A model generated the notes under the pieces. It was not told where the DNA came from. It saw only the letters and a program-made list of their open reading frames with translations, and ran no database searches. The position numbers were made by a program, and so were the translations under genes. From Escherichia coli (GTDB lineage Bacteria > Pseudomonadota > Gammaproteobacteria > Enterobacterales > Enterobacteriaceae), in assembly GCF_050320075.1 (NCBI RefSeq), contig NZ_CP190018.1: a stretch of 64,000 bases of DNA, one strand, 5' to 3'. Numbering within the stretch: the first letter of the stretch is position 1; each line of letters opens with the position of its first letter. This document shows positions 1 through 33,314 of this stretch, piece after piece.

Positions 1-95
1 CGTTGAGATTTTGCCTGCGGACGTCCTGGATACTTTTCATTTTCTGGAAAATCGCCTCATATATGAATCAGTAGATGATTCAATTTAAAGCAATA

Positions 96-158
96 TTACC
101 CAACAGGTAAATGCACCTCATGGGTAACTATCCTTGATTTTTGTTACCTTATGGGTGA
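96..158. promoter_or_regulatory. Operator cluster: three TTACC-N5-GGTAA type palindromes (96-110 perfect; 113-127 and 144-158 degenerate) upstream of Cro-like gene
   Basis: Read directly: TTACCCAACAGGTAA, GCACCTCATGGGTAA, TTACCTTATGGGTGA, spaced like a lambdoid OR region. Confidence 0.6.
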
Positions 159-194
159 ATATTTATTATCTGAAATAAATATCAGGCAATAGCT

Positions 195-425
195 ATGAGC
201 GATAACGGACATTTCGATTTCAAAAAGCACTGGCTTGCACTTACTCCGGATGAGCGTGAAGCCTTCGCACAGGAAGCCGGAACGACGAGTCACTATATCC
301 AGACTCACTTAACAGGTAAGCGCAAAATGCCAGGTAAAGTATTGATGAATGGGCTTTTTAAAGCCTGTAAAACAAGACAATGGCTGCGCTCAAAAGCAGA
401 ACTGGCATACTTCTTCTACTCATGA
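195..425 (+). CDS. Cro/CI-type helix-turn-helix regulator (Cro-like)
   Basis: 76 aa ORF; HTH-like segment AFAQEAGTTSHYIQTHLTGKRKMP; sits directly downstream of the operator cluster and upstream of the replication genes. Confidence 0.6.
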   Translation: MSDNGHFDFKKHWLALTPDEREAFAQEAGTTSHYIQTHLTGKRKMPGKVLMNGLFKACKTRQWLRSKAELAYFFYS

Positions 426-5548: not shown

Positions 5549-5671
5549 AGTGCAACGCTCTGCTTTATGCCATGGTGATTGGTTTCGGCCTGGTTGCTGG
5601 TATCCGGGTTTATATTACCTGGGAGTCATTAATCAATCTGGCGTGGAGTGCGATTCGTGGCTAAATCCCCC
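5549..5671 (+). CDS. Small hydrophobic peptide, 40 aa (MNKCNALLYAMVIGFGLVAGIRVYITWESLINLAWSAIRG); not in the ORF track
   Basis: ATG 5549 preceded by strong SD GGAGGTGA; single predicted TM helix; translated by hand. Confidence 0.35.
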
Positions 5672-5995
5672 GCAGAACGCAAAGCCGCGCAGCGCGCTCG
5701 GCAGTCCGCCGCCGGTGAGCGCAAAATTGAACTGGTGCTGGATAAGCAGGAGCAGGAAATGCTGGAGCGTAACTGTGCCACGCGTCGCCCCGGGCGTGCG
5801 CCTTACGAATTTGGGGAGTATATAGCGTTACTGATCCGCCAGGATGATGCACGCGTGCGCGGGCGTATAAAATCGATTAGCAGAAAACGTTGCGGTAAGT
5901 GCGGCGAGAAAGTTCCCGTTAATTCATGCCCGTGTAATGGTGACTCGCAATGCTGGGTGACTAAAGGCTGGCATGAAACGAAATTAATAGTGTGA
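5657..5995 (+). CDS. Hypothetical protein with C-terminal Cys cluster (CGKCGEKVPVNSCPCNGDSQC); possible regulator
   Basis: ORF 5648..5995, likely GTG start at 5657; stop TGA lies inside the GTGACATGTCAC palindrome. Confidence 0.4.
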   Translation: MAKSPAERKAAQRARQSAAGERKIELVLDKQEQEMLERNCATRRPGRAPYEFGEYIALLIRQDDARVRGRIKSISRKRCGKCGEKVPVNSCPCNGDSQCWVTKGWHETKLIV

Positions 5996-6044: not shown

Positions 6045-6070
6045 GCCGCCAACTATGGCGGCTTTATTTT
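6045..6070 (+). terminator. Rho-independent terminator
   Basis: Hairpin GCCGCC-AACTAT-GGCGGC followed by TTTATTTT. Confidence 0.6.
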
Positions 6071-6081
6071 GCATGGTACTA

Positions 6082-6114
6082 TTACCACAACGGTAACAAT
6101 TACCATGGTGGTTA
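6082..6114. promoter_or_regulatory. Operator-like palindromes at 6082-6096 (TTACCACAACGGTAA) and 6100-6114 (TTACCATGGTGGTTA, degenerate) upstream of terminase genes
   Basis: Read directly; they lie inside the over-extended track ORF 6036..6710. Confidence 0.55.
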
Positions 6115-6710
6115 TGATGCCTGCTGAACCTAAAACCTATAAACGCAAATCAACGCAATTTAAGCCACTAACCGCAATGCAGGAGGCTTATTGCCAGTCA
6201 TACATCAAAACGCCTGAAAACCAGACTCAGGCAGCGATTAACGCAGGATTCTCCCCAAATACAGCGGCAGTTAAAGCCAGTGTCATGATGCGCGATGAAC
6301 GCATTCAAAAACGGATTGCCGAGTTGATGGAGGAGCGCAACAAACGAATGCGCGTCAGTGCCGATTACGTTCTCATGCGCCTGGTGGAGATCGACCAGAT
6401 GGACGTGATTGATATCCTCAATGACGATGGGAGCCTTAAGCCAATCCGCGAGTGGCCGAAAATCTGGCGCACTACGCTTAGTGGCTTTGATCTGTCATCG
6501 ACCATCATGAACATGAACGAGGATTCGATAGAGACAATTCTCAAAAAAATTAAATGGCCTGACAAGGTGAAGAACCTCGAACTGATTGGTAAGCACGTCG
6601 ACGTCAATGCATTCAAAGAACGCCTGGATGTTAATGTGAATGTGACAATTGCTGATCGCATAGCGGCAGCCAGGAAGCGACTCAAAGAACGTCAGGATGG
6701 TAATCAGTGA
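6114..6710 (+). CDS. Terminase small subunit (start trimmed from track ORF 6036; true start 6105-6117 uncertain)
   Basis: Segment LTAMQEAYCQSYIKTPENQTQAAINAGFSPNTAAVKASVMMRDERIQKRIAEL resembles the terminase small-subunit DNA-binding domain; directly upstream of the large subunit. Confidence 0.6.
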   Translation: MMPAEPKTYKRKSTQFKPLTAMQEAYCQSYIKTPENQTQAAINAGFSPNTAAVKASVMMRDERIQKRIAELMEERNKRMRVSADYVLMRLVEIDQMDVIDILNDDGSLKPIREWPKIWRTTLSGFDLSSTIMNMNEDSIETILKKIKWPDKVKNLELIGKHVDVNAFKERLDVNVNVTIADRIAAARKRLKERQDGNQ

Positions 6711-18222: not shown

Positions 18223-20843
18223 TGCCAGTCGTACCAACAGTATCCGGACGTCAGGTTGAGAGCCGTGGAGTTCAGTCAGCAGGCTTGCAGATGTTTTCTC
18301 AGCCAGGTATTGGTGATGCTTTTGTTCTGGCAGGGGCAGAGGCTATTGATGTTCTGGGTCAGGCAAAACAGCGTGCCAATATTGCCTTGGTTCAGGAGGC
18401 ATCCCTTAAACTCAGTCAGACAGGCAGCGATCTGCTGAATAACCCTGAAACAGGTTTGCTTAACCTGAAAGGGAAAAATGCTATTGGAAAAGGTCAGGAG
18501 TATACGCAGCAGTTTGATGCTCAGGTCGAACAACTGGCTATGTCGCTGCCGGATGAACAGGCTCGTAATGCTTTCATGCAGCAGGCGCAGCAGCAGCGCA
18601 TTCAGTTCACTACGCAGGCCGGGAGGTACGAAATAGGACAGGTTCGCCAGTATGAGGCGGATATGCAGGATGCGACACTAAAAAACCTATCGATGCAGTT
18701 CCGTAACCCGACAATGGCAAACCAGGCAGGATTGAAGGCATATCATAGCATCATCGCTTACGGAGAAGCCCACGGCCAGAGTCAGGAAGAGATCGAACAG
18801 AACTGGGTTTCGTGGCGCGAGAATGCCGCGAACGGTGCGGCGGAGGCGTGGTATGTGCCGATGTATCAACAGATGATGGGTCCGAACGGCAAGATTGAGG
18901 TAACCGATACACCGAGTGAGGCGCAGTTATTCTCTGCAATAATCTGGCAGGAGAGTGGCGGAAATCAGTACGGAAAGGACGGAACACCTCTGGTGTCGCC
19001 AAAAGGCGCTGTTGGCGTAGCGCAGGTGACGGAAGATACTGGCCCCGAAGCTGCCCGCCTTGCTGGCGTGCCGTGGGACCGCGATAAATGGTTGAATGAC
19101 CCGCGCTATAATGCCCGCTTGGGGCAAGCTTATTTCGGCGCGCAGATGAAGAAATACGACAATAACCCGGTTCTGGCAGTAGCTGCCTATAACGCTGGCC
19201 CAGGAAAGGTTGACGGCTGGATTAAACAGATTGGCGATCCGCGCACAGGCGAAGTCAGTAACGCCCAGTTTGCCGCAGCTATCCCATACGACGAGACGCG
19301 CAATTATGTGGCAAAAGTAACTGGCAGTGCTGGAGCTATTCCTGGATCTGCGACGATGGAAAACCTCATCGCACAGCCATTCTGGAACGCCATGAGTCCG
19401 GACAAAAAGTCGCAGATGATGAGCAAGGTTGCTGGCATGTACGACATGCAGGCTTCAGCCGGTCGCGTTGCGCTACAGAGTCGAATGCAGGACGACCTAT
19501 CCAAAATTGAGGCCGGTAAGCAGGTGACGCCTATTTCAGCGCACGAATGGGCCGCCGTTATGCCGCTTCAGGCAGCGCCTGCCGAGCGCCTGCAGATGGA
19601 AAAAACCTTCCAGCAATACCAGCAGGCAATGACGCTACAACCTGTTTATCAGACCATTATGCAGGGCAACGTCCAGCAGGGTACCGCCGCCGTGCAGGCA
19701 ATGGCACCGCAGGAAAACGACCCTGACTTTAAATACAAAGCAGAGCTTTATGCATCGGCAAAGGTCAAGCTTGGGCAGGTACTGAAGGCGCGGGAAGCGG
19801 ATCCGGGGGCATGGCTGCAACAAAACTCTCCGGTTGTGCAGGCTGCATTCCAGCAGTACCTGAATGACCCTTCATCTGGTGAATACCTAGTTTCCCGCAT
19901 ACAGTCTGAAAAAGACCGCCTGGGGATAATGAGCAAAAAAGTTTTACCGGAGTCCATGGTCAACGACGTACTGCAGCGTATTGACAACACGCAGGAATCT
20001 AGCGTAAAGGCCATTCAGTCGGTGGCGCAGTCGTTCGGCAAATACTCGGATCAGGTGATGCGGCAGGTGCAAAATAAAGCATTCCCAGCTTTAAAGGTTG
20101 TAATGTCTACAGAAAACCAACGGGCAGCAGATGCGTTGTGGCAAATACGGAATGTACCTACTTCTGATTTGAGATCTGGTTTGGATAAAAACCAGGCAGA
20201 CAGTGCAGACTCATCGTGGACAGATCAATTTAAAGATTTTTCTTCAACTCTTATTCCTCAGAGAAATGGTGCTGAAAACTGGACTATTTATAACGAGCAG
20301 GGAAAACGCTTGACCTACAACTACATGCAGCGCGGAATGTCGGCGTCTGATGCAGCAAAACAGGCGTATCAGGACCTTCTCGGCGAGCAGTACCAGACCA
20401 ATGGCACTTGGCGGCTACCTAATCGTGCAGGGGTAGATATTCGTGACGTTAACGATGGTGCCAATGCGTATCTGAAAAACCTGTCAGCAGATCAGATTAT
20501 GCCGCTTATTGGTGACCCAAGGCTACCTGATGAGGTCAACCGTGAGCAGAGTATCTCCCGCATTCGTGATAATGCGCAGTGGGTTACCAACAGCGACGAA
20601 ACAGGACTTACCCTGATGCTCAACGGGCTGATCGTCAACGGTGCCGACGGCAACTCGATTACGGTGACGTTCAACGATCTGGCGAAACTGGGAACAACCA
20701 ACCGATCAGTATGGAACCGCATTACCAAGTTCATTGATACTCCGGTGAAATATACTCCCGGACAGTCTAAGGAATACAGCGCAGAAAGTCAGCGCGACAA
20801 CCTGATTAACATTTTCCAGAACGGCCAGCAATCAGGACGATAA
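18222..20843 (+). CDS. Ejection/internal virion protein with lytic transglycosylase (SLT-like) domain; start moved to ATG 18222
   Basis: GGAGG RBS before MPVVPTV; region AIIWQESGGNQYG...VGVAQVTEDTG...AYNAGPGKV resembles the SLT active-site region. Confidence 0.65.
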   Translation: MPVVPTVSGRQVESRGVQSAGLQMFSQPGIGDAFVLAGAEAIDVLGQAKQRANIALVQEASLKLSQTGSDLLNNPETGLLNLKGKNAIGKGQEYTQQFDAQVEQLAMSLPDEQARNAFMQQAQQQRIQFTTQAGRYEIGQVRQYEADMQDATLKNLSMQFRNPTMANQAGLKAYHSIIAYGEAHGQSQEEIEQNWVSWRENAANGAAEAWYVPMYQQMMGPNGKIEVTDTPSEAQLFSAIIWQESGGNQYGKDGTPLVSPKGAVGVAQVTEDTGPEAARLAGVPWDRDKWLNDPRYNARLGQAYFGAQMKKYDNNPVLAVAAYNAGPGKVDGWIKQIGDPRTGEVSNAQFAAAIPYDETRNYVAKVTGSAGAIPGSATMENLIAQPFWNAMSPDKKSQMMSKVAGMYDMQASAGRVALQSRMQDDLSKIEAGKQVTPISAHEWAAVMPLQAAPAERLQMEKTFQQYQQAMTLQPVYQTIMQGNVQQGTAAVQAMAPQENDPDFKYKAELYASAKVKLGQVLKAREADPGAWLQQNSPVVQAAFQQYLNDPSSGEYLVSRIQSEKDRLGIMSKKVLPESMVNDVLQRIDNTQESSVKAIQSVAQSFGKYSDQVMRQVQNKAFPALKVVMSTENQRAADALWQIRNVPTSDLRSGLDKNQADSADSSWTDQFKDFSSTLIPQRNGAENWTIYNEQGKRLTYNYMQRGMSASDAAKQAYQDLLGEQYQTNGTWRLPNRAGVDIRDVNDGANAYLKNLSADQIMPLIGDPRLPDEVNREQSISRIRDNAQWVTNSDETGLTLMLNGLIVNGADGNSITVTFNDLAKLGTTNRSVWNRITKFIDTPVKYTPGQSKEYSAESQRDNLINIFQNGQQSGR

Positions 20844-26856: not shown

Positions 26857-26977
26857 ATGAACCTCAACCAATCGACTTTACCAATCGGGTAATTTTAAAC
26901 ATGAGTATAATGCTTTTAACTGCAACGAGTGTAAACAATTATTGATAATTGTAGGCACATCCCTGTGCCGCCGCCCG

Positions 26978-27664
26978 TCAGAAGAACCCTGCTTTGTCGT
27001 TGATGTACTCCGCGTGCGTCTGGATATCACGCAGGCATTTACTCACACCGACGATGTAGCAGAACATGGTGGTCAACTCCGCCGCCGCGCCCGATACGTC
27101 GTGCCCGTCGTCCTGTAACTGGTTCAGCAAATTCATCAGCAGTGAGTTCTCCGTCAGGCCGAGAACACCAGACGGCGAATGAATCAGGCTACGGTAGCCG
27201 GGCTTCAGTGGGGCGCTGTAGGTTTTGTTCTCTATCTTCATTGCCTGCATCACTGCTGATGCTGTGGCGTTGGCTACCTGGTCGGCAACCATCTTTATGC
27301 GTTCTTCCTGCGGGAGCGAGTTTTTAATGTAACTTCCGGTGCGGCGGATCTGAGGAAGAACCTCACCTGTAACCCATTTGCGAAAGCGGTAGGGGATAGT
27401 GCCTGGTGTTACTGCATCGCGGCAGCGGAGGATCAGTGTGTAGAGGCCTGACTCGTTGATAATATTGGTTTCGCCTTGACGGCCTAAGTTAAATTTAGCC
27501 CTTTCATCATCATCAAGAGATTTTATTGACATAGTGGGGTTTGTCAGTTGAAGAGCTTTAATAACGTCTTTGGCAACAAACCAAGGATTTCCATCAATAA
27601 CAATGGCTCGAATGGTTGCTTCTGATTCAAAATGAAAAACAGATGGGGTTACGTTAGCAGTCAT
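26978..27664 (-). CDS. Bro-N domain antirepressor-like protein (start trimmed to ATG 27664)
   Basis: N-terminal FHFESEATIRAIVIDGNPWFVAKDVIKAL...NIINESGLYTLILRCRDA resembles Bro-N; SD AAGGTGA before ATG 27664. Confidence 0.6.
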   Translation of the reverse strand: MTANVTPSVFHFESEATIRAIVIDGNPWFVAKDVIKALQLTNPTMSIKSLDDDERAKFNLGRQGETNIINESGLYTLILRCRDAVTPGTIPYRFRKWVTGEVLPQIRRTGSYIKNSLPQEERIKMVADQVANATASAVMQAMKIENKTYSAPLKPGYRSLIHSPSGVLGLTENSLLMNLLNQLQDDGHDVSGAAAELTTMFCYIVGVSKCLRDIQTHAEYINDKAGFF

Positions 27665-27932
27665 AGTGATCACCTTTGTAGTTAGGTTAATCACCACTAC
27701 CGACGCCAATCGGTTGGTGGTGAACTGTGCAGGGTTGGCGTAACCGGCTACAAAGGACCCGGCGCACCTTTCGGTGCCCCCACACAGCCCACCATAGAAT
27801 AGGTGCGCTTTACACATAAAAAAAACCGCTTATGCGGCATATGTGCCTCTGTAGTAACTCGGGACGCCAATCCCGGCACTGGATTTTGCCAGTGCCCGAT
27901 TACTATGGCACAAGAGGAGTGCGTTGTAAATT

Positions 27933-27947
27933 TACCGCAAAGGTAAA
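27933..27947. promoter_or_regulatory. Operator-like palindrome TTACCGCAAAGGTAA upstream of the Bro-N gene
   Basis: Perfect copy, intergenic. Confidence 0.6.
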
Positions 27948-27977
27948 TATAAGCACTCCACTTGGCAATTGCAAACC

Positions 27978-28235
27978 TTATCTGGTTTGTTTTCGTAATT
28001 GTTCGGCACAATAGTCGAGATGTGTTTGCAGATCCCGCATAGACATCTGTGAGCTGGTGACGTAGTTAATCAGTGCAGTCAGTTCGGCAAGTGGGCCATC
28101 GACATTAAATCCATCCTTATCGAGATCCCGGAGTAATTTCATCAAGTGCGATCCCTCCACCAGTGACCTGACGCCTCCCGGCGTGTGAATCCTTTCGGTA
28201 AATCCGTCTTCCAGTGGATAGTGATACTGCTGCAT
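27978..28235 (-). CDS. Small protein paralogous to the C-terminal domain of the adjacent Bro-N protein
   Basis: HTPGGVRSLVEGSHLMKLLRDLDKDGFNVDGPLAELTALINYV...MRDLQTHLDY aligns with Bro-N C-terminus HSPSGVLGLTENSLLMNLLNQLQDDGHDVSGAAAELTTMFCYI...LRDIQTHAEY. Confidence 0.5.
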   Translation of the reverse strand: MQQYHYPLEDGFTERIHTPGGVRSLVEGSHLMKLLRDLDKDGFNVDGPLAELTALINYVTSSQMSMRDLQTHLDYCAEQLRKQTR

Positions 28236-28312
28236 CTTAATCTTCTCCATGCAATAACTGTATATTTATACAGTATCAAATAATTTGTTTGCTATCCAGC
28301 ACGTTTTGCAAA

Positions 28313-28327
28313 TTACCTGAAAGGTAA
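28313..28327. promoter_or_regulatory. Operator-like palindrome TTACCTGAAAGGTAA in the divergent region before the tailspike gene
   Basis: Perfect copy; identical to the copy at 9248. Confidence 0.6.
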
Positions 28328-28431
28328 TATCTATTCATATTCACAGTCTTTCTATCCATATATGGTTTTTTGGGTAATAGAATAACCAGATATGCGGCGC
28401 AACGGGTGCTGCGACTATCTGGAGATTTAAC

Positions 28432-31275
28432 ATGACGGTCTCAACCGAAGTTGACCACAACGAATACACAGGTAACGGCGTTACGACATCGTTTCCGTAT
28501 ACTTTTCGAATTTTCAGAAAATCAGACCTGGTTGTTCAGGTGTCTGACCTGAACGGGAACGTAACAGAATTGGTTCTGGATACCGGTTATACGGTAACTG
28601 GGGCGGGCACTTATAGTGGCGGTTCAGTGGTTCTGCCGTCTCCGCTTGCTGCTGGCTGGCGAATTACGATAGATCGTGTGCTTGATGTAGTGCAGGAGAC
28701 AGACCTCCGCAATCAGGGAAAGTTTTTCCCCGAAGTGCATGAAGATGCCTTTGACTACCTGACGATGCTGATCCAGCAATGTTTTGGGTGGTTCAGACGT
28801 GCATTGATGAAGCCCTCTCTGCTTGCAAAATATTACGATGCAAAGCAAAACAGAATTTCTAACCTTGCAGATCCATCACTTGAGCAGGACGCTGTAAATA
28901 ATCGCTCAATGCGTAATTATGTCGATGCTGCAATCGCCGGAGTTGTTGGTGGTTTTGGTTGGTTTATTCAGTATGGTTCTGGGGCAGTATATCGCACCTT
29001 CCAGGACAAGATGCGAGATGAAATAAATGTTCATGATTATGGTGCTATAGGTGATGGAAATTATCACCCGCTTTCTGAACGTTATTCATCGTTGGCTGCT
29101 GCGCAGCAACAATATCCATTTGCTACTTCCCTTGGTCAGTCTATTGACTGGGCTGCAATACAGGCAGCGATCAATGCCTCACAAGGCAGAAAGGTAAAAT
29201 TATTAGCAAAAACATACATTTCTACTGATGGATTCACTGGCGTTGATGGTCTTTGTTTAATTGGTGAAGGTGCTACCCCTTTTTACCTTAACTTTCAGGA
29301 CATTCCATACACCAACAATGGTGGTACTGACATTCTTTTCTATGGTACAGGCCAAAAGAACAGAAGCATTTATGGTATTTCGGATATGCAGCCATCCGGT
29401 GGTGTGAGGACAGATCCTGATTTAGGCGTGACTCATGCATTAACCAATATGACGAATGGAGACGCCAGCACTTCGGCGGCTGCAACCCCTCGAGCAGTAA
29501 GCGCTGGCTTATACCTTGAGCATTGCAAAGGCTGGCAAATTGAGGGAATCCGATTTGCTCCATATTTTAACGGGGTCGAATCATATACAGACCAGACTAA
29601 CTTAGGGCTGGCTGATGAATGGGATATCGGAATTCTCATCAATAGTTCTTATGATGGTGTAATGCGCGATGTTCGCGCGGTTGGGCACTGGCGAGTTGCT
29701 GGCCTGGCTGTGTTTGCAGGCGAAAATCCTTTCAACACAGGCGCGTCATCTTCATGTGAACGAAACAGATTTTTTTCCTGTCAGTTTAATGGAAAGTCTG
29801 GCGTTCTTATTCGCGGCGGGGATGCCTACCGGTGTACAGCAGTAACAGCTGACACTGTCGAAATTCCATGGCACGATTCAAACCCGTTCCGGCATACCGG
29901 TGGGGTATTTCTTGGGGCCTTTGGTGGCGCAACCTCTGCAAGCTATACCTATACCAGCGCAACGGTTACCGGTGATAAGCTGACGCTCCACGGAGTAAGC
30001 CCTAACCCTTTATCGAATGGTATGACAACATCTTCAGGGGTGTATACCGGTAGAAGTTATGGGTTCCAGGGTACGCAATTCTTTGGTTGTTACTTTGGCG
30101 GCCTTGAGCATCAGACTAACCGAGTGGCTACAGACCCGGCGCTTACCTCACCATTCCCTACGTCGTCAAAACCTGTCGAAATTTCAGGTGTTCCGGCAGG
30201 AAATATCAGGTTCTATGGTTGTACGCACATGACCCGGGAAGACTGTGTGTGGATGATCCATAACGCCTCAAATATCTACGACTTCGGAGGCTATTTTGAG
30301 GCCAAGCGAGCGATCACTGCTACTGGCGGCGGCTCGCGCATGGTAGCCATCGGTAATTGGCCTGATTACACCCCGACTGCAGAATCACCATATCCGTTTG
30401 GTACGGTCAGTAACATAAATATGTTCGGTTCGCAGGCTCTTAATTTCGTTGATATGTACCCTGTAGTTGCCCGTTCTACAGGTGTAACGCGCTTTACCTC
30501 CGGGATGTGGGATTGTAAGACCCTCTATAGCTCCGAGGCATTTCAGGATCTTGCTGACACCAACAACTATGTAATAAAGGGTTTACGAAACGAAAGCATA
30601 AGGTTCGAGGACGGAGCCGGCGGCCATCTTATGACCATGCAGAATATTGGCAATCTCCTGCTTGGTAAGCGCGCCAGATTTAACACCTCAACAGAGGATC
30701 GTTATCAGTTCTATCGACTCGATGGAACAACCATTTTCTTATCCCTCGATGGCACGATGTCCACGCCAGTAATGACTCTGGATGGAAACTTTGTCCCTGC
30801 AGTTGCCAATACAAGGTTGGTCGGAACTGCGGCCAAGCCCTTCTCGGGAGGTAATACCCAGACAGCTTATAACATCACTTCTGACCGGAACTACAAAACT
30901 GACTTTGGTGAAATTCCTGACGCCGTTCTGGATGCATGGGAATTGGTGCAGTATTCACAATATAAACTCAGGGATGCAGTTGCGTTGAAGGGGGAAGGCG
31001 CCAGATTACATGTCGGTGTTGTTGCACAGCAGGTGAAAGAGGCATTTGAATCAGTAGGGGTCGATCCTTTTGCATATGGCGTACTGTGCTACGACGAATG
31101 GTCTGGTCAGGAAGAAGTTATTGAGGACGGTGTCATTACGCAGCAAAAAGTGGAAGCAGGGAAGCGTTACAGTGTGCGCTACGAAGAGGCATATGCAATA
31201 GAGTCCGCCTTGCTTCGGAGAACTCATACCAGATTGGAGCAGCGCTTATCTTCTCTTGAAGAAAAATCAAAATAG
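28432..31275 (+). CDS. Tailspike/tail fibre protein with C-terminal intramolecular chaperone (peptidase S74-like) domain
   Basis: 947 aa; GGAG RBS; N-terminal virion-binding-like region; C-terminal region containing SDRNYK and GVVAQQVKEAFESVG resembles autocleaving chaperone domains. Confidence 0.7.
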   Translation: MTVSTEVDHNEYTGNGVTTSFPYTFRIFRKSDLVVQVSDLNGNVTELVLDTGYTVTGAGTYSGGSVVLPSPLAAGWRITIDRVLDVVQETDLRNQGKFFPEVHEDAFDYLTMLIQQCFGWFRRALMKPSLLAKYYDAKQNRISNLADPSLEQDAVNNRSMRNYVDAAIAGVVGGFGWFIQYGSGAVYRTFQDKMRDEINVHDYGAIGDGNYHPLSERYSSLAAAQQQYPFATSLGQSIDWAAIQAAINASQGRKVKLLAKTYISTDGFTGVDGLCLIGEGATPFYLNFQDIPYTNNGGTDILFYGTGQKNRSIYGISDMQPSGGVRTDPDLGVTHALTNMTNGDASTSAAATPRAVSAGLYLEHCKGWQIEGIRFAPYFNGVESYTDQTNLGLADEWDIGILINSSYDGVMRDVRAVGHWRVAGLAVFAGENPFNTGASSSCERNRFFSCQFNGKSGVLIRGGDAYRCTAVTADTVEIPWHDSNPFRHTGGVFLGAFGGATSASYTYTSATVTGDKLTLHGVSPNPLSNGMTTSSGVYTGRSYGFQGTQFFGCYFGGLEHQTNRVATDPALTSPFPTSSKPVEISGVPAGNIRFYGCTHMTREDCVWMIHNASNIYDFGGYFEAKRAITATGGGSRMVAIGNWPDYTPTAESPYPFGTVSNINMFGSQALNFVDMYPVVARSTGVTRFTSGMWDCKTLYSSEAFQDLADTNNYVIKGLRNESIRFEDGAGGHLMTMQNIGNLLLGKRARFNTSTEDRYQFYRLDGTTIFLSLDGTMSTPVMTLDGNFVPAVANTRLVGTAAKPFSGGNTQTAYNITSDRNYKTDFGEIPDAVLDAWELVQYSQYKLRDAVALKGEGARLHVGVVAQQVKEAFESVGVDPFAYGVLCYDEWSGQEEVIEDGVITQQKVEAGKRYSVRYEEAYAIESALLRRTHTRLEQRLSSLEEKSK

Positions 31276-31366
31276 GGGATGGTAATAATTATCCGTATAT
31301 GGTTTATTGTGTATGATGAACTCACCAACTAAGGGGGTTCTTTATGCACAATAAACGGTGGTCATC

Positions 31367-33164: not shown

Positions 33165-33314
33165 CATGGCATTTTCATGGCACTGATTTCCTGTGACGGT
33201 ATATAAAACGGTACGAGGAAAATTTGGTTTTGGAAAAGTGTTATCACTCAATTGGTTATGGTGTCCGTAAATAATTGAGTGGGAATGATTTTGATCCCTG
33301 CACTATGAATGAAC

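What the first reader, a model, noticed from the sequence alone, without database searches (positions are those of the whole stretch)
27933..28327. Divergent control region between the antirepressor operon and tailspike carrying two operator copies
Perfect palindromes at 27933 and 28313 flank the small paralogue gene and face the minus-strand accessory operon and the + strand tailspike gene, suggesting coordinated control of an accessory operon and a late structural gene by the same factor.
Basis: partly seen in the sequence, partly recalled or inferred. Interest (0 to 1): 0.4.

Follow-up and report, generated by a model that had tools for sequence, protein, structure and literature searches.

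The report
Prophage repressor operators flanking an antirepressor gene
The two small palindromes are ordinary binding sites for the prophage's own repressor, part of a set of at least eleven such sites in this phiV10/epsilon15-like E. coli prophage, and they sit beside two differently controlled antirepressor genes and the tailspike gene.

Summary
Interrupted dyads TTACC-N5-GGTAA lie at 27932-27946 and 28313-28327 and flank a small minus-strand gene. The prophage part of the window has 8 exact copies (0.02 expected by chance), all intergenic.

The window is a Uetakevirus (phiV10/epsilon15/SPC32H-like) prophage. The same dyad occurs three times between rep and cro and at syntenic places in six relatives. 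The epsilon15 RefSeq record already annotates these dyads as repressor-binding sites, including the homologue of site 28313. So "same factor" is supported, and that factor is most likely the Rep repressor.

- The small gene is the SPC32H-type antirepressor Ant (PDB 5D50, E 1e-46). It has its own conserved promoter and a near-consensus LexA box (28256-28275).
- Site 27932 abuts a conserved minus-strand promoter. That promoter drives an isrK/a1b1 RNA, a C4 antisense RNA and a second antirepressor (Bro-N fused to an Ant-like domain), as in the P1 immI region.
- Site 28313 lies upstream of both the LexA-controlled ant promoter and a conserved tailspike promoter. Its direct target is unresolved.

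This is a new member of a known kind and of low-to-moderate interest.

The parts
27932..27946 (.). Site A: Rep-type operator TTACC-GCAAA-GGTAA (extended dyad 27930-27948)
   Evidence: The arms are invariant in ZX5, phiV10 and Tyrion, while the centre varies and is even inverted in phiV10.
28313..28327 (.). Site B: Rep-type operator TTACC-TGAAA-GGTAA (extended dyad 28312-28328)
   Evidence: Present at the same place in ZX5, phiV10 (1 mismatch), epsilon15, SPC32H, Tyrion and Klebsiella BUCT711. Its epsilon15 homologue 19895-19911 is annotated 'protein_bind: repressor'.
27978..28235 (-). ant1: small antirepressor, 85 aa, homologue of SPC32H Ant
   Evidence: PDB 5D50 chain E 'Anti-repressor protein', E 1.4e-46, residues 2-84 aligned to 3-85. 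Same position as SPC32H ant, next to tsp.
28256..28275 (.). LexA box AACTGTATATTTATACAGTA (CTGT-N8-ACAG core 28258-28273)
   Evidence: Conserved in six genomes. It overlaps the -10 of the ant1 promoter.
28270..28298 (-). P_ant1 candidate: -35 TGGATA (28298-28293), 17-nt spacer, -10 TACTGT (28275-28270)
   Evidence: Phylogenetic footprint. Both hexamers are invariant in six genomes and the spacer length is fixed at 17, while the spacer sequence diverges. Inferred; no transcript data.
27946..27974 (-). Promoter P1 of the isrK/C4/ant2 unit: TTGCAA-17-TATATT, with the -10 abutting site A
   Evidence: Conserved in ZX5 and phiV10. Tyrion has TTGTAA-17-TATTAT with a diverged spacer.
27902..27930 (-). 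Second tandem promoter candidate: TTTACA-17-CATAGT with TG; predicted start is about 27895, the isrK 5' end
   Evidence: Conserved in ZX5 and Tyrion, disrupted in phiV10.
27819..27908 (-). isrK / c4-a1b1 RNA element (a1 27855-27846, b1 27870-27864) with an intrinsic terminator at 27838-27825 plus a U-run
   Evidence: Rfam isrK 74.2 bits (gathering 50). c4-a1b1 44.3 bits (gathering 46.7). Terminator.
27713..27799 (-). C4 antisense RNA
   Evidence: Rfam RF01695, 79.5 bits (gathering 45), full length.
27673..27709 (-). C4 targets b2 (27709-27703) and a2 (27681-27673); a2 covers the Shine-Dalgarno sequence of ant2
   Evidence: Exact complementarity of 9 nt and 7 nt to C4. Coordinated compensatory changes in a1/a'/a2 and b1/b'/b2 across four phages.
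26978..27664 (-). ant2: Bro-N domain fused to an Ant-like C-terminal domain, 228 aa
   Evidence: Pfam Bro-N 5e-20. Residues 147-223 are homologous to SPC32H Ant, E 1.9e-13. 82% identical to ZX5 ORF4, which was tested by overexpression (PMC9782041).
26878..26892 (.). Site C: third exact operator copy, abutting the -10 TAAAAT of a minus-strand promoter before two accessory genes
   Evidence: Downstream genes are 26871-26530 (no Pfam hit) and 26603-26055 (DUF2335).
28355..28383 (+). P_tsp candidate: -35 TCCATA, 17-nt spacer, -10 TAGAAT, with a Rep half-site GGTAAT (28373-28378) abutting the -10
   Evidence: The block is invariant in seven genomes. There is no indel between site B and this block. 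Inferred.
28432..31275 (+). Tailspike / tail fibre gene
   Evidence: annotation of homologues.
96..158 (.). Three operator copies (96-110, 113-127, 144-158) between rep (ATG at about 39, minus strand) and cro (195)
   Evidence: PR candidate TTGTTA-17-TATTAT overlaps the third copy.

Best explanation
Both dyads are operators for the prophage's Rep repressor, an SPC32H/epsilon15-type HTH repressor that binds palindromic sites as a tetramer. The rep gene starts at window position ~39 and runs off the left edge. The dyads belong to a regulon of at least 11 sites that places one or two operators at the head of nearly every transcription unit.

Site A (27932-27946) overlaps the -10/+1 of a conserved minus-strand promoter and lies just upstream of a second tandem promoter. 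In a lysogen Rep would therefore shut off the isrK/a1b1 RNA, the C4 antisense RNA and ant2, the Bro-N/Ant-domain antirepressor. C4 adds a second lock by pairing with the ant2 ribosome-binding site, as in the P1 immI region.

Site B (28313-28327) lies between two divergent promoters. One is the LexA-controlled promoter of ant1, the SOS-inducible SPC32H-type antirepressor. The other is the tailspike promoter. ant1 must be expressible while Rep is still active, because that is how induction starts. Site B is therefore more likely to act on the tailspike promoter, possibly together with the promoter-proximal GGTAAT half-site.

Shown here: the dyad family, its conservation, the protein and RNA homologies, and the promoter footprints. 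Inferred: that Rep is the binder, and which promoter each site represses. The confidence of 0.8 is for the claim that both dyads are Rep operators. The claim that site A controls the isrK/C4/ant2 promoter is about 0.7. The claim that site B acts on the tailspike promoter is about 0.45.
For: 1. Family and significance: 8 exact copies against 0.02 expected. It is the top 5-N5-5 dyad in the prophage part and absent from the host part.
2. Three copies lie in the rep-cro intergenic region, overlapping a PR-like promoter.
3. In a 100% identical E. coli genome, rep is intact just left of the window and two more copies sit in the PL region.
4. The dyad occurs at syntenic positions in phiV10, ZX5, epsilon15, SPC32H, Tyrion and Klebsiella BUCT711, with arms invariant and centres variable.
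5. The epsilon15 RefSeq record annotates seven of these dyads as 'protein_bind: repressor, lysogeny', including the homologue of site B.
6. Rep here is identical to phiV10 p40 and matches PDB 5D50 chain A 'Repressor' at E 4e-42.
7. Secondary literature states that SPC32H Rep binds palindromic sites as a tetramer and that Ant disassembles it.
8. Site A abuts TTGCAA-17-TATATT. The hexamers are conserved over a diverged spacer in Tyrion.
9. The same isrK/C4/ant module in Stx phage PA28 has a promoter but no such dyad. The operator is therefore a Uetakevirus-specific addition.
10. Spacing from site B to the TAGAAT block has no indel in seven genomes. Spacing from site B to P_ant1 varies by 2 nt in BUCT711.
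11. In ZX5, repressor overexpression cut endolysin and holin transcripts by more than 99.9% (PMC9782041).
Against: - No binding or transcript data exist for these sites. The primary SPC32H and epsilon15 papers could not be read.
- All Rep lineages (42-100% identity) keep the same half-site. The decisive test, operator co-varying with repressor allele, could therefore not be made.
- Cro-like gp39, or another conserved regulator, could share or own the sites.
- Site B overlaps neither core promoter. It is centred at about -57 from the P_ant1 start and about -70 from the P_tsp start. How it represses is unclear.
- The simple sigma-70 scan found no + strand promoter overlapping site B.
Confidence: 0.8

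Rival explanations
1. The dyads are bound mainly by a different phage regulator, and Rep control is only indirect. Candidates are the Cro-like gp39 (window 195-425) and the conserved 'transcriptional regulator' just upstream of terS (5648-5995), acting as a lytic repressor or late-gene activator.
For: Copies sit in front of late units (terS 6082/6100, head genes 9248, tailspike 28313). Such units are not usually under direct CI control in lambdoid phages. The half-site is invariant although Rep diverges to 42% identity. Cro proteins generally share operators with their repressor (established knowledge).
Against: Triple sites at rep/cro and paired sites at PL are the classic repressor layout. 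The Rep N-terminal HTH region keeps an invariant NLVNRW...G.K.IG...AR.IE block across lineages, which explains the conserved half-site. The epsilon15 annotation assigns the sites to the repressor. The 5648-5995 and 195-425 products have no Pfam DNA-binding hit.
Confidence: 0.1
2. Sites A and B work together. One Rep tetramer bridges them, 381 bp apart, and loops out ant1 with its promoter. This adds Rep control to LexA control of the primary antirepressor.
For: Rep is a tetramer with two DNA-binding pairs and a p53-like 'TetDloop' domain linked to DNA looping. Other operator pairs have a strictly conserved 62-63 bp spacing in all six genomes. That spacing implies cooperative binding of two dyads.
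Against: The A-B distance is 380, 381, 383 and 412 bp in four phages, so it is not phase-conserved. epsilon15 and SPC32H have site B only. Strong Rep repression of ant1 would block SOS induction.
Confidence: 0.12
3. The dyads act at the RNA level as hairpins, for termination, processing or occlusion of a ribosome-binding site, rather than as protein-binding DNA.
For: Each folds into a 7-bp hairpin of -5 to -5.5 kcal/mol. A larger dyad around site A gives -25.3 kcal/mol (z -6.2), and -32.5 kcal/mol in phiV10. Some copies overlap ribosome-binding sites or start codons (2489, 6100).
Against: The core stems are weak and lack U-runs. The centre of site A is inverted in phiV10 with the arms kept, which preserves a DNA dyad and not an RNA sequence. 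Copies occur in non-transcribed divergent regions and in either orientation relative to genes. The extended hairpin differs in register between phages.
Confidence: 0.03

Closest known systems
Repressor-binding sites of Salmonella phage epsilon15 (RefSeq NC_004775 annotation, Kropinski et al. 2007) and the Rep/Ant/LexA switch of phage SPC32H (Kim & Ryu 2013; Kim et al. 2016; PDB 5D4Z, 5D50)
   Same: Same genus and the same ATTACC-N5-GGTAAT dyad. The same site lies between ant (gp19) and the tailspike gene. Same Ant (88% identity over 83 aligned residues), same Rep family, and same LexA box before ant.
   Different: epsilon15 and SPC32H have only site B here. This prophage, like phiV10, ZX5 and Tyrion, has an inserted isrK/C4/Bro-N-ant unit with its own operator (site A). 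It also has a third operator (26878) before further accessory genes.
immI region of phages P1/P7: C1-controlled Op51/P51 promoters, c4 antisense RNA, icd, ant (established knowledge; Rfam C4 and c4-a1b1)
   Same: A repressor-operated promoter, followed by a1/b1, then C4 RNA, then an a2/b2 target over a ribosome-binding site, then the antirepressor. Specificity alleles are kept by compensatory changes, like P1 versus P7. The primary repressor also has many dispersed operators.
   Different: There is no icd gene; a2 covers the ant2 ribosome-binding site directly. The a1/b1 element is an isrK-type unit with its own terminator. The antirepressor is a Bro-N/Ant-domain fusion unrelated to P1 Ant. 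The operator is a symmetric dyad for an XRE-type tetramer, not the asymmetric 17-bp C1 site.
Gifsy-1 isrK-orf45-anrP locus, and the isrK/C4/ant modules of Stx phages
   Same: isrK-type RNA upstream of an antirepressor gene. The module in Stx phage PA28 matches the same three Rfam families (PMC7380047).
   Different: In PA28 the module sits in the nin region behind TTGACG-17-TATATT, with no TTACC-N5-GGTAA dyad.
LexA-controlled antirepressors of coliphage 186 (Tum) and of the Gifsy/Fels-2 prophages
   Same: SOS induction works through a LexA-repressed small antirepressor and not through repressor cleavage (PMC7380047).
   Different: Different protein family. Here a second, repressor- and antisense-controlled antirepressor carrying the same binding domain lies immediately downstream.

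Membership tests
Uetakevirus (epsilon15/SPC32H-type) Rep operator | 15-17 bp dyad (A)TTACC-N5-GGTAA(T) with conserved arms and a variable centre | tested here: met
   Both sites match exactly. The arms are invariant across 4-7 genomes and the centres vary.
Uetakevirus (epsilon15/SPC32H-type) Rep operator | The same dyad is present in multiple copies between the repressor gene and cro | tested here: met
   Copies at 96-110, 113-127 and 144-158, conserved in five genomes.
Uetakevirus (epsilon15/SPC32H-type) Rep operator | Syntenic with a site annotated as a repressor-binding site in a reference genome | tested here: met
   Site B corresponds to epsilon15 19895-19911, annotated 'protein_bind repressor'. 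Site A has no annotated counterpart, because epsilon15 lacks that module.
Uetakevirus (epsilon15/SPC32H-type) Rep operator | A cognate Rep protein is encoded by the same element | tested here: met
   Only 13 codons lie in the window. In the 100% identical genome NZ_CP123240.1, rep is intact, identical to phiV10 p40, and matches PDB 5D50_A at E 4e-42.
Uetakevirus (epsilon15/SPC32H-type) Rep operator | Physical binding by Rep and repression of an adjacent promoter | not testable with these tools
   Needs EMSA or footprinting and reporter fusions.
SPC32H-type LexA-controlled antirepressor (ant1) | Homology to SPC32H Ant | tested here: met
   5D50_E, E 1.4e-46.
SPC32H-type LexA-controlled antirepressor (ant1) | LexA box overlapping the promoter | tested here: met
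   CTGTATATTTATACAG at 28258-28273, conserved, overlapping the -10 TACTGT.
P1-type immI (c4-ant) module | C4 antisense RNA | tested here: met
   RF01695, 79.5 bits against gathering score 45.
P1-type immI (c4-ant) module | a1/b1 upstream of C4, and a2/b2 downstream over a ribosome-binding site, both complementary to C4 loops | tested here: met
   isrK 74.2 bits (above gathering). c4-a1b1 44.3 bits (just below its gathering score of 46.7). Exact complements of 9 nt and 7 nt. Compensatory changes in all three elements.
P1-type immI (c4-ant) module | icd gene between c4 and ant, translationally coupled to ant | tested here: not met
   Only 48 nt separate C4 (ends 27713) from the ant2 ATG (27664), and no ORF lies between them.
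P1-type immI (c4-ant) module | Operon promoter carries an operator of the primary repressor | tested here: inconclusive
   Site A abuts the -10 of a conserved promoter. Binding was not tested.

The most novel reading that the evidence does not exclude
A two-tier antirepressor cascade. SOS cleavage of LexA fires P_ant1. No terminator lies between ant1 and the isrK element, so these transcripts would run into the a1/b1 (isrK-like) decoy and stop at its terminator. The resulting excess of a1/b1 RNA would titrate C4. Meanwhile Ant1 would strip Rep from site A. Together these events would unlock transcription and translation of the second antirepressor, Bro-N-Ant2, as a feed-forward commitment device. 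Rep bound at sites A and B might also bridge them and tune ant1.
Probability: 0.15. Interest if true: 0.55.

Novelty: new member of a known kind. Interest (0 to 1): 0.25.

Why it matters
The region is found in about 10% of complete E. coli genomes (530 of 5426). It shows how a common prophage family wires its induction circuit. A host LexA-controlled antirepressor sits next to a second antirepressor that is locked by both the prophage repressor and an antisense RNA. Repressor operators sit at the head of every unit, including the late genes.

For annotation, it gives a simple rule. TTACC-N5-GGTAA marks promoter-operator modules in Uetakevirus prophages, including newly inserted accessory cassettes. 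The regulatory principle itself is not new. Each layer has an experimentally studied precedent (SPC32H, P1, Gifsy-1).

Tried and rejected
1. Reading the primary papers failed. Kim & Ryu 2013, Kim et al. 2016 and Kropinski et al. 2007 are not held. A full-text search for the motif found no paper that describes it.
2. A covariation test of operator sequence against repressor allele was not informative. E. coli, Enterobacter, Salmonella and Klebsiella Rep lineages (42-100% identity) all use the same half-site.
3. The RNA hairpin or terminator reading was rejected. The stems are weak, there is no U-run, and the centre is inverted in phiV10.
4. A + strand promoter overlapping site B was considered. 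TTGCAA-16-TATCTA was not called by the scan, and its -10 is not conserved. A minus-strand promoter using TTGCAA next to site B also has no conserved -10.
5. Helical phasing between sites A and B is not conserved: 380-412 bp.
6. RNA duplexfold energies for C4 against its targets were not clearly better than shuffles. The argument rests instead on exact complements and compensatory changes.
7. A recurrent second motif, CCATATATGGTT, was examined as a possible regulator site. At the tailspike and head-gene units it coincides with the -35 and upstream spacer of the conserved promoter candidates. Its register differs at other units, and it remains unexplained.

Full report
**What the window is.** The region matches E. 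coli phages of the genus Uetakevirus at 92-98% identity (phiV10, vB_EcoP_ZX5 and others). It matches Enterobacter phage Tyrion and Salmonella epsilon15-like phages more distantly. The attachment core ATTGAGTGGGAATGATT reported for phiV10, epsilon15 and ZX5 (PMC9782041) is at 33274-33290. The prophage therefore fills window 1 to about 33290. Window positions 1-200 are essentially identical to the phiV10 rep-cro region. Position 1 lies inside the repressor gene, which starts at about 39 on the minus strand. In E. coli YZLc1-3, which is 100% identical over 27900-28440, rep is intact just left of the window and identical to phiV10 p40. That protein matches the SPC32H 'Repressor' chain of PDB 5D50 at E 4e-42.

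**Checking the observation.**
- The two dyads are real. Site A is ATTTACC-GCAAA-GGTAAAT, core 27932-27946. Site B is ATTACC-TGAAA-GGTAAT, core 28313-28327. They are interrupted dyads with perfect arms, not perfect palindromes.
- TTACCNNNNNGGTAA occurs 8 times exactly against 0.02 expected. It occurs 15 times with up to one mismatch against 1.07 expected.
- An unbiased count of every 5-N5-5 dyad ranks TTACC first in the prophage part, with 8 copies; the runner-up has 3. There is no copy in the host part.
- The exact or near-exact copies are at 96, 113, 144, 481, 2427, 2489, 6082, 6100, 9248, 26878, 27932 and 28313. All are intergenic.

**Who binds them.**
- Three copies lie between rep and cro. 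The third overlaps a PR-like promoter, TTGTTA-17-TATTAT.
- Two more copies, 62 bp apart, lie in the PL region just outside the window.
- The dyad is found at the same syntenic places in phiV10, ZX5, epsilon15, SPC32H, Tyrion and Klebsiella phage BUCT711. Paired sites keep a 62-63 bp spacing in every genome.
- The curated epsilon15 RefSeq record annotates seven of these dyads as 'protein_bind: repressor; lysogeny'. One is 19895-19911, between gp19 and the tail fibre gene, which is the homologue of site B.
- Rep proteins of the four lineages are only 42-78% identical overall. They keep an invariant N-terminal block (NLVNRW..G.K.IG...AR.IE.AA.K), which fits the unchanged half-site.
- According to secondary sources, SPC32H Rep binds palindromic DNA as a tetramer and is disassembled by a tetrameric Ant.
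- I therefore assign the dyads to Rep. Because the half-site never changes, I could not run the test that would prove it, namely operator co-variation with repressor allele. A shared or alternative binder such as the Cro-like gp39 is not excluded.

**The gene between the dyads.** It is an 85-aa protein (28235 to 27978, minus strand) that matches the SPC32H antirepressor Ant almost end to end (PDB 5D50 chain E, E 1.4e-46). In SPC32H the ant gene occupies the same place next to tsp.
- Just upstream lies a near-consensus LexA box, AACTGTATATTTATACAGTA, at 28256-28275.
- An alignment of six genomes gives a clean promoter footprint on the minus strand: -35 TGGATA (28298-28293) and -10 TACTGT (28275-28270). 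Both hexamers are invariant. They are separated by exactly 17 nt of diverged sequence, and the LexA box covers the -10.
- This is the published logic of SOS induction through a LexA-repressed antirepressor (PMC7380047).

**Site A and the unit it heads.** Rfam finds three elements on the minus strand:
- an isrK RNA at 27895-27819 (74.2 bits);
- the overlapping c4-a1b1 motif at 27908-27856 (44.3 bits, just below its gathering score);
- a full-length C4 antisense RNA at 27799-27713 (79.5 bits).

The isrK element ends in an intrinsic terminator. C4 is followed after 48 nt by a 228-aa protein (27664 to 26978). This protein has an N-terminal Bro-N domain and a C-terminal domain homologous to SPC32H Ant (E 1.9e-13). 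It is 82% identical to ZX5 ORF4. Overexpression of ORF4 lowered lysogen formation from about 10^9 to 10^6 (PMC9782041).

C4 carries CCUUUGUAG, which is exactly complementary to 27681-27673 and covers the ant2 Shine-Dalgarno sequence. It also carries ACGCCAA, complementary to 27709-27703 and to 27870-27864. Two independent compensatory events show that these pairings are under selection:
- A one-base deletion is shared by a1, a' and a2 in ZX5 and phiV10, relative to the window and Tyrion.
- A GCG-to-GUC change in b1 and b2 is matched by CGC-to-GAC in C4 in Tyrion.

Site A sits at the head of this unit.
- The minus-strand promoter TTGCAA-17-TATATT (27974-27946) ends on the first base of the dyad. 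It is kept in ZX5 and phiV10. In Tyrion it is TTGTAA-17-TATTAT over a diverged spacer.
- A second candidate, TTTACA-17-CATAGT (27930-27902), would start at the isrK 5' end. It begins two bases after the dyad.
- Rep on site A would occlude both promoters.
- The same isrK/C4/ant module in Stx phage PA28 has a promoter but no such dyad. The operator therefore belongs to the Uetakevirus circuit and not to the module.
- The arrangement works like the P1 immI region: an Op51-controlled promoter, c4, then ant. It lacks icd, and the proteins are unrelated.

**Site B.** It lies in the true divergent region between ant1 and the tailspike gene.
- It overlaps neither core promoter. Its centre is about 57 bp upstream of the predicted P_ant1 start.
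- It is about 70 bp upstream of the start predicted for the best tailspike promoter candidate. That candidate is T(C/T/A)CATA-17-TAGAAT at 28355-28383. It is invariant in seven genomes and has a GGTAAT half-site abutting the -10.
- No indel separates site B from this block in any genome. The distance to P_ant1 changes by 2 nt in BUCT711.
- Ant1 has to be made while Rep is still active. I therefore favour the tailspike promoter as the target, perhaps with the tetramer also touching the proximal half-site. This step is inference, and the mechanism is open.
- A Rep bridge between sites A and B is possible but not favoured. Their distance is 380-412 bp without conserved phase, and epsilon15 and SPC32H have site B alone.

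**Alternatives.** An RNA-hairpin role is unlikely. The core stems are weak (-5 kcal/mol) and lack U-runs. In phiV10 the centre of site A is inverted while the arms stay the same. A larger dyad around site A (-25 kcal/mol) exists, but it has a different register in Tyrion.

**Verdict.**
- The operators are already annotated in epsilon15, and the Rep/Ant/LexA switch is characterised in SPC32H.
- What this locus adds is a second operator guarding an inserted P1-like C4/antirepressor cassette, and a third (26878-26892) guarding further accessory genes.
- This is a new member of a known kind.

Noticed in passing
window 28256-28275: A near-consensus LexA box (CTGT-N8-ACAG) overlaps the -10 of the promoter of the small gene. 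That gene is the SPC32H-type antirepressor Ant.
   Followed up: yes
window 27713-27908 (minus strand); A2 alignment: An isrK/a1b1 element plus C4 antisense RNA lie upstream of the Bro-N antirepressor. Coordinated compensatory changes in a1/a'/a2 (a 1-nt indel) and b1/b'/b2 (GCG to GUC) across four phages act as specificity alleles, like P1 versus P7.
   Followed up: yes
window 26878-26892: A third exact operator copy abuts the -10 TAAAAT of a minus-strand promoter. The promoter precedes a 113-aa protein with no Pfam hit and a DUF2335 membrane protein. Klebsiella phage BUCT711 likewise has an operator (L009 17377) before a DUF2335 gene directly after ant1.
   Followed up: partly
window 2475, 9306, 28359, 31296, 496-509; same places in L003-L006: A second recurrent motif, CCATATATGGTT / TATGTGGTT, lies 46-58 bp downstream of operator copies in front of + strand units. 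At tsp and the head genes it coincides with the -35 and spacer of the conserved promoter candidates. Elsewhere its register differs. Its meaning is unresolved.
   Followed up: partly
window 31262-31300: The region upstream of the holin/lysis cassette keeps the conserved promoter-like block but only a right half-site, GGTAAT. Relatives have a full dyad 49 bp upstream. The tailspike 3' end abuts here and there is no O-antigen-modification gene, which suggests a module exchange removed the operator.
   Followed up: partly
window 2427/2489; L003 31953/32015 and 35070/35132; equivalents in L004, L005, L006, L009: Operator pairs at PL and at the DUF1064/RuvC promoter keep a 62-63 bp centre-to-centre spacing in all six genomes. 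This fits cooperative binding by a tetramer.
   Followed up: partly
window 27911-27964; L003 20476-20516: An extended dyad surrounds site A. As RNA it folds to -25.3 kcal/mol (z -6.2). In phiV10 it is a 41-bp perfect palindrome with the operator centre inverted, which suggests a past inversion or recombination at the dyad.
   Followed up: partly
L003 19646-20230: The phiV10 Bro-N antirepressor is truncated after about residue 181 and lacks most of the Ant-like C-terminal domain. The second tandem promoter (-35 TTTACA) is also disrupted there.
   Followed up: no
window 6045-6117: An intrinsic terminator is followed directly by two adjacent operator copies. The second copy overlaps the terS start codon. 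The pattern 'terminator, then operator' recurs at 447-495 and 2395-2441, so each unit appears insulated and separately operated.
   Followed up: no
window 27900-28440 against complete E. coli genomes: The ant1/tailspike control region is present in 530 of 5426 complete E. coli genomes. Many matches begin at query base 79-85, so they lack site A and carry a different module downstream of ant1.
   Followed up: no
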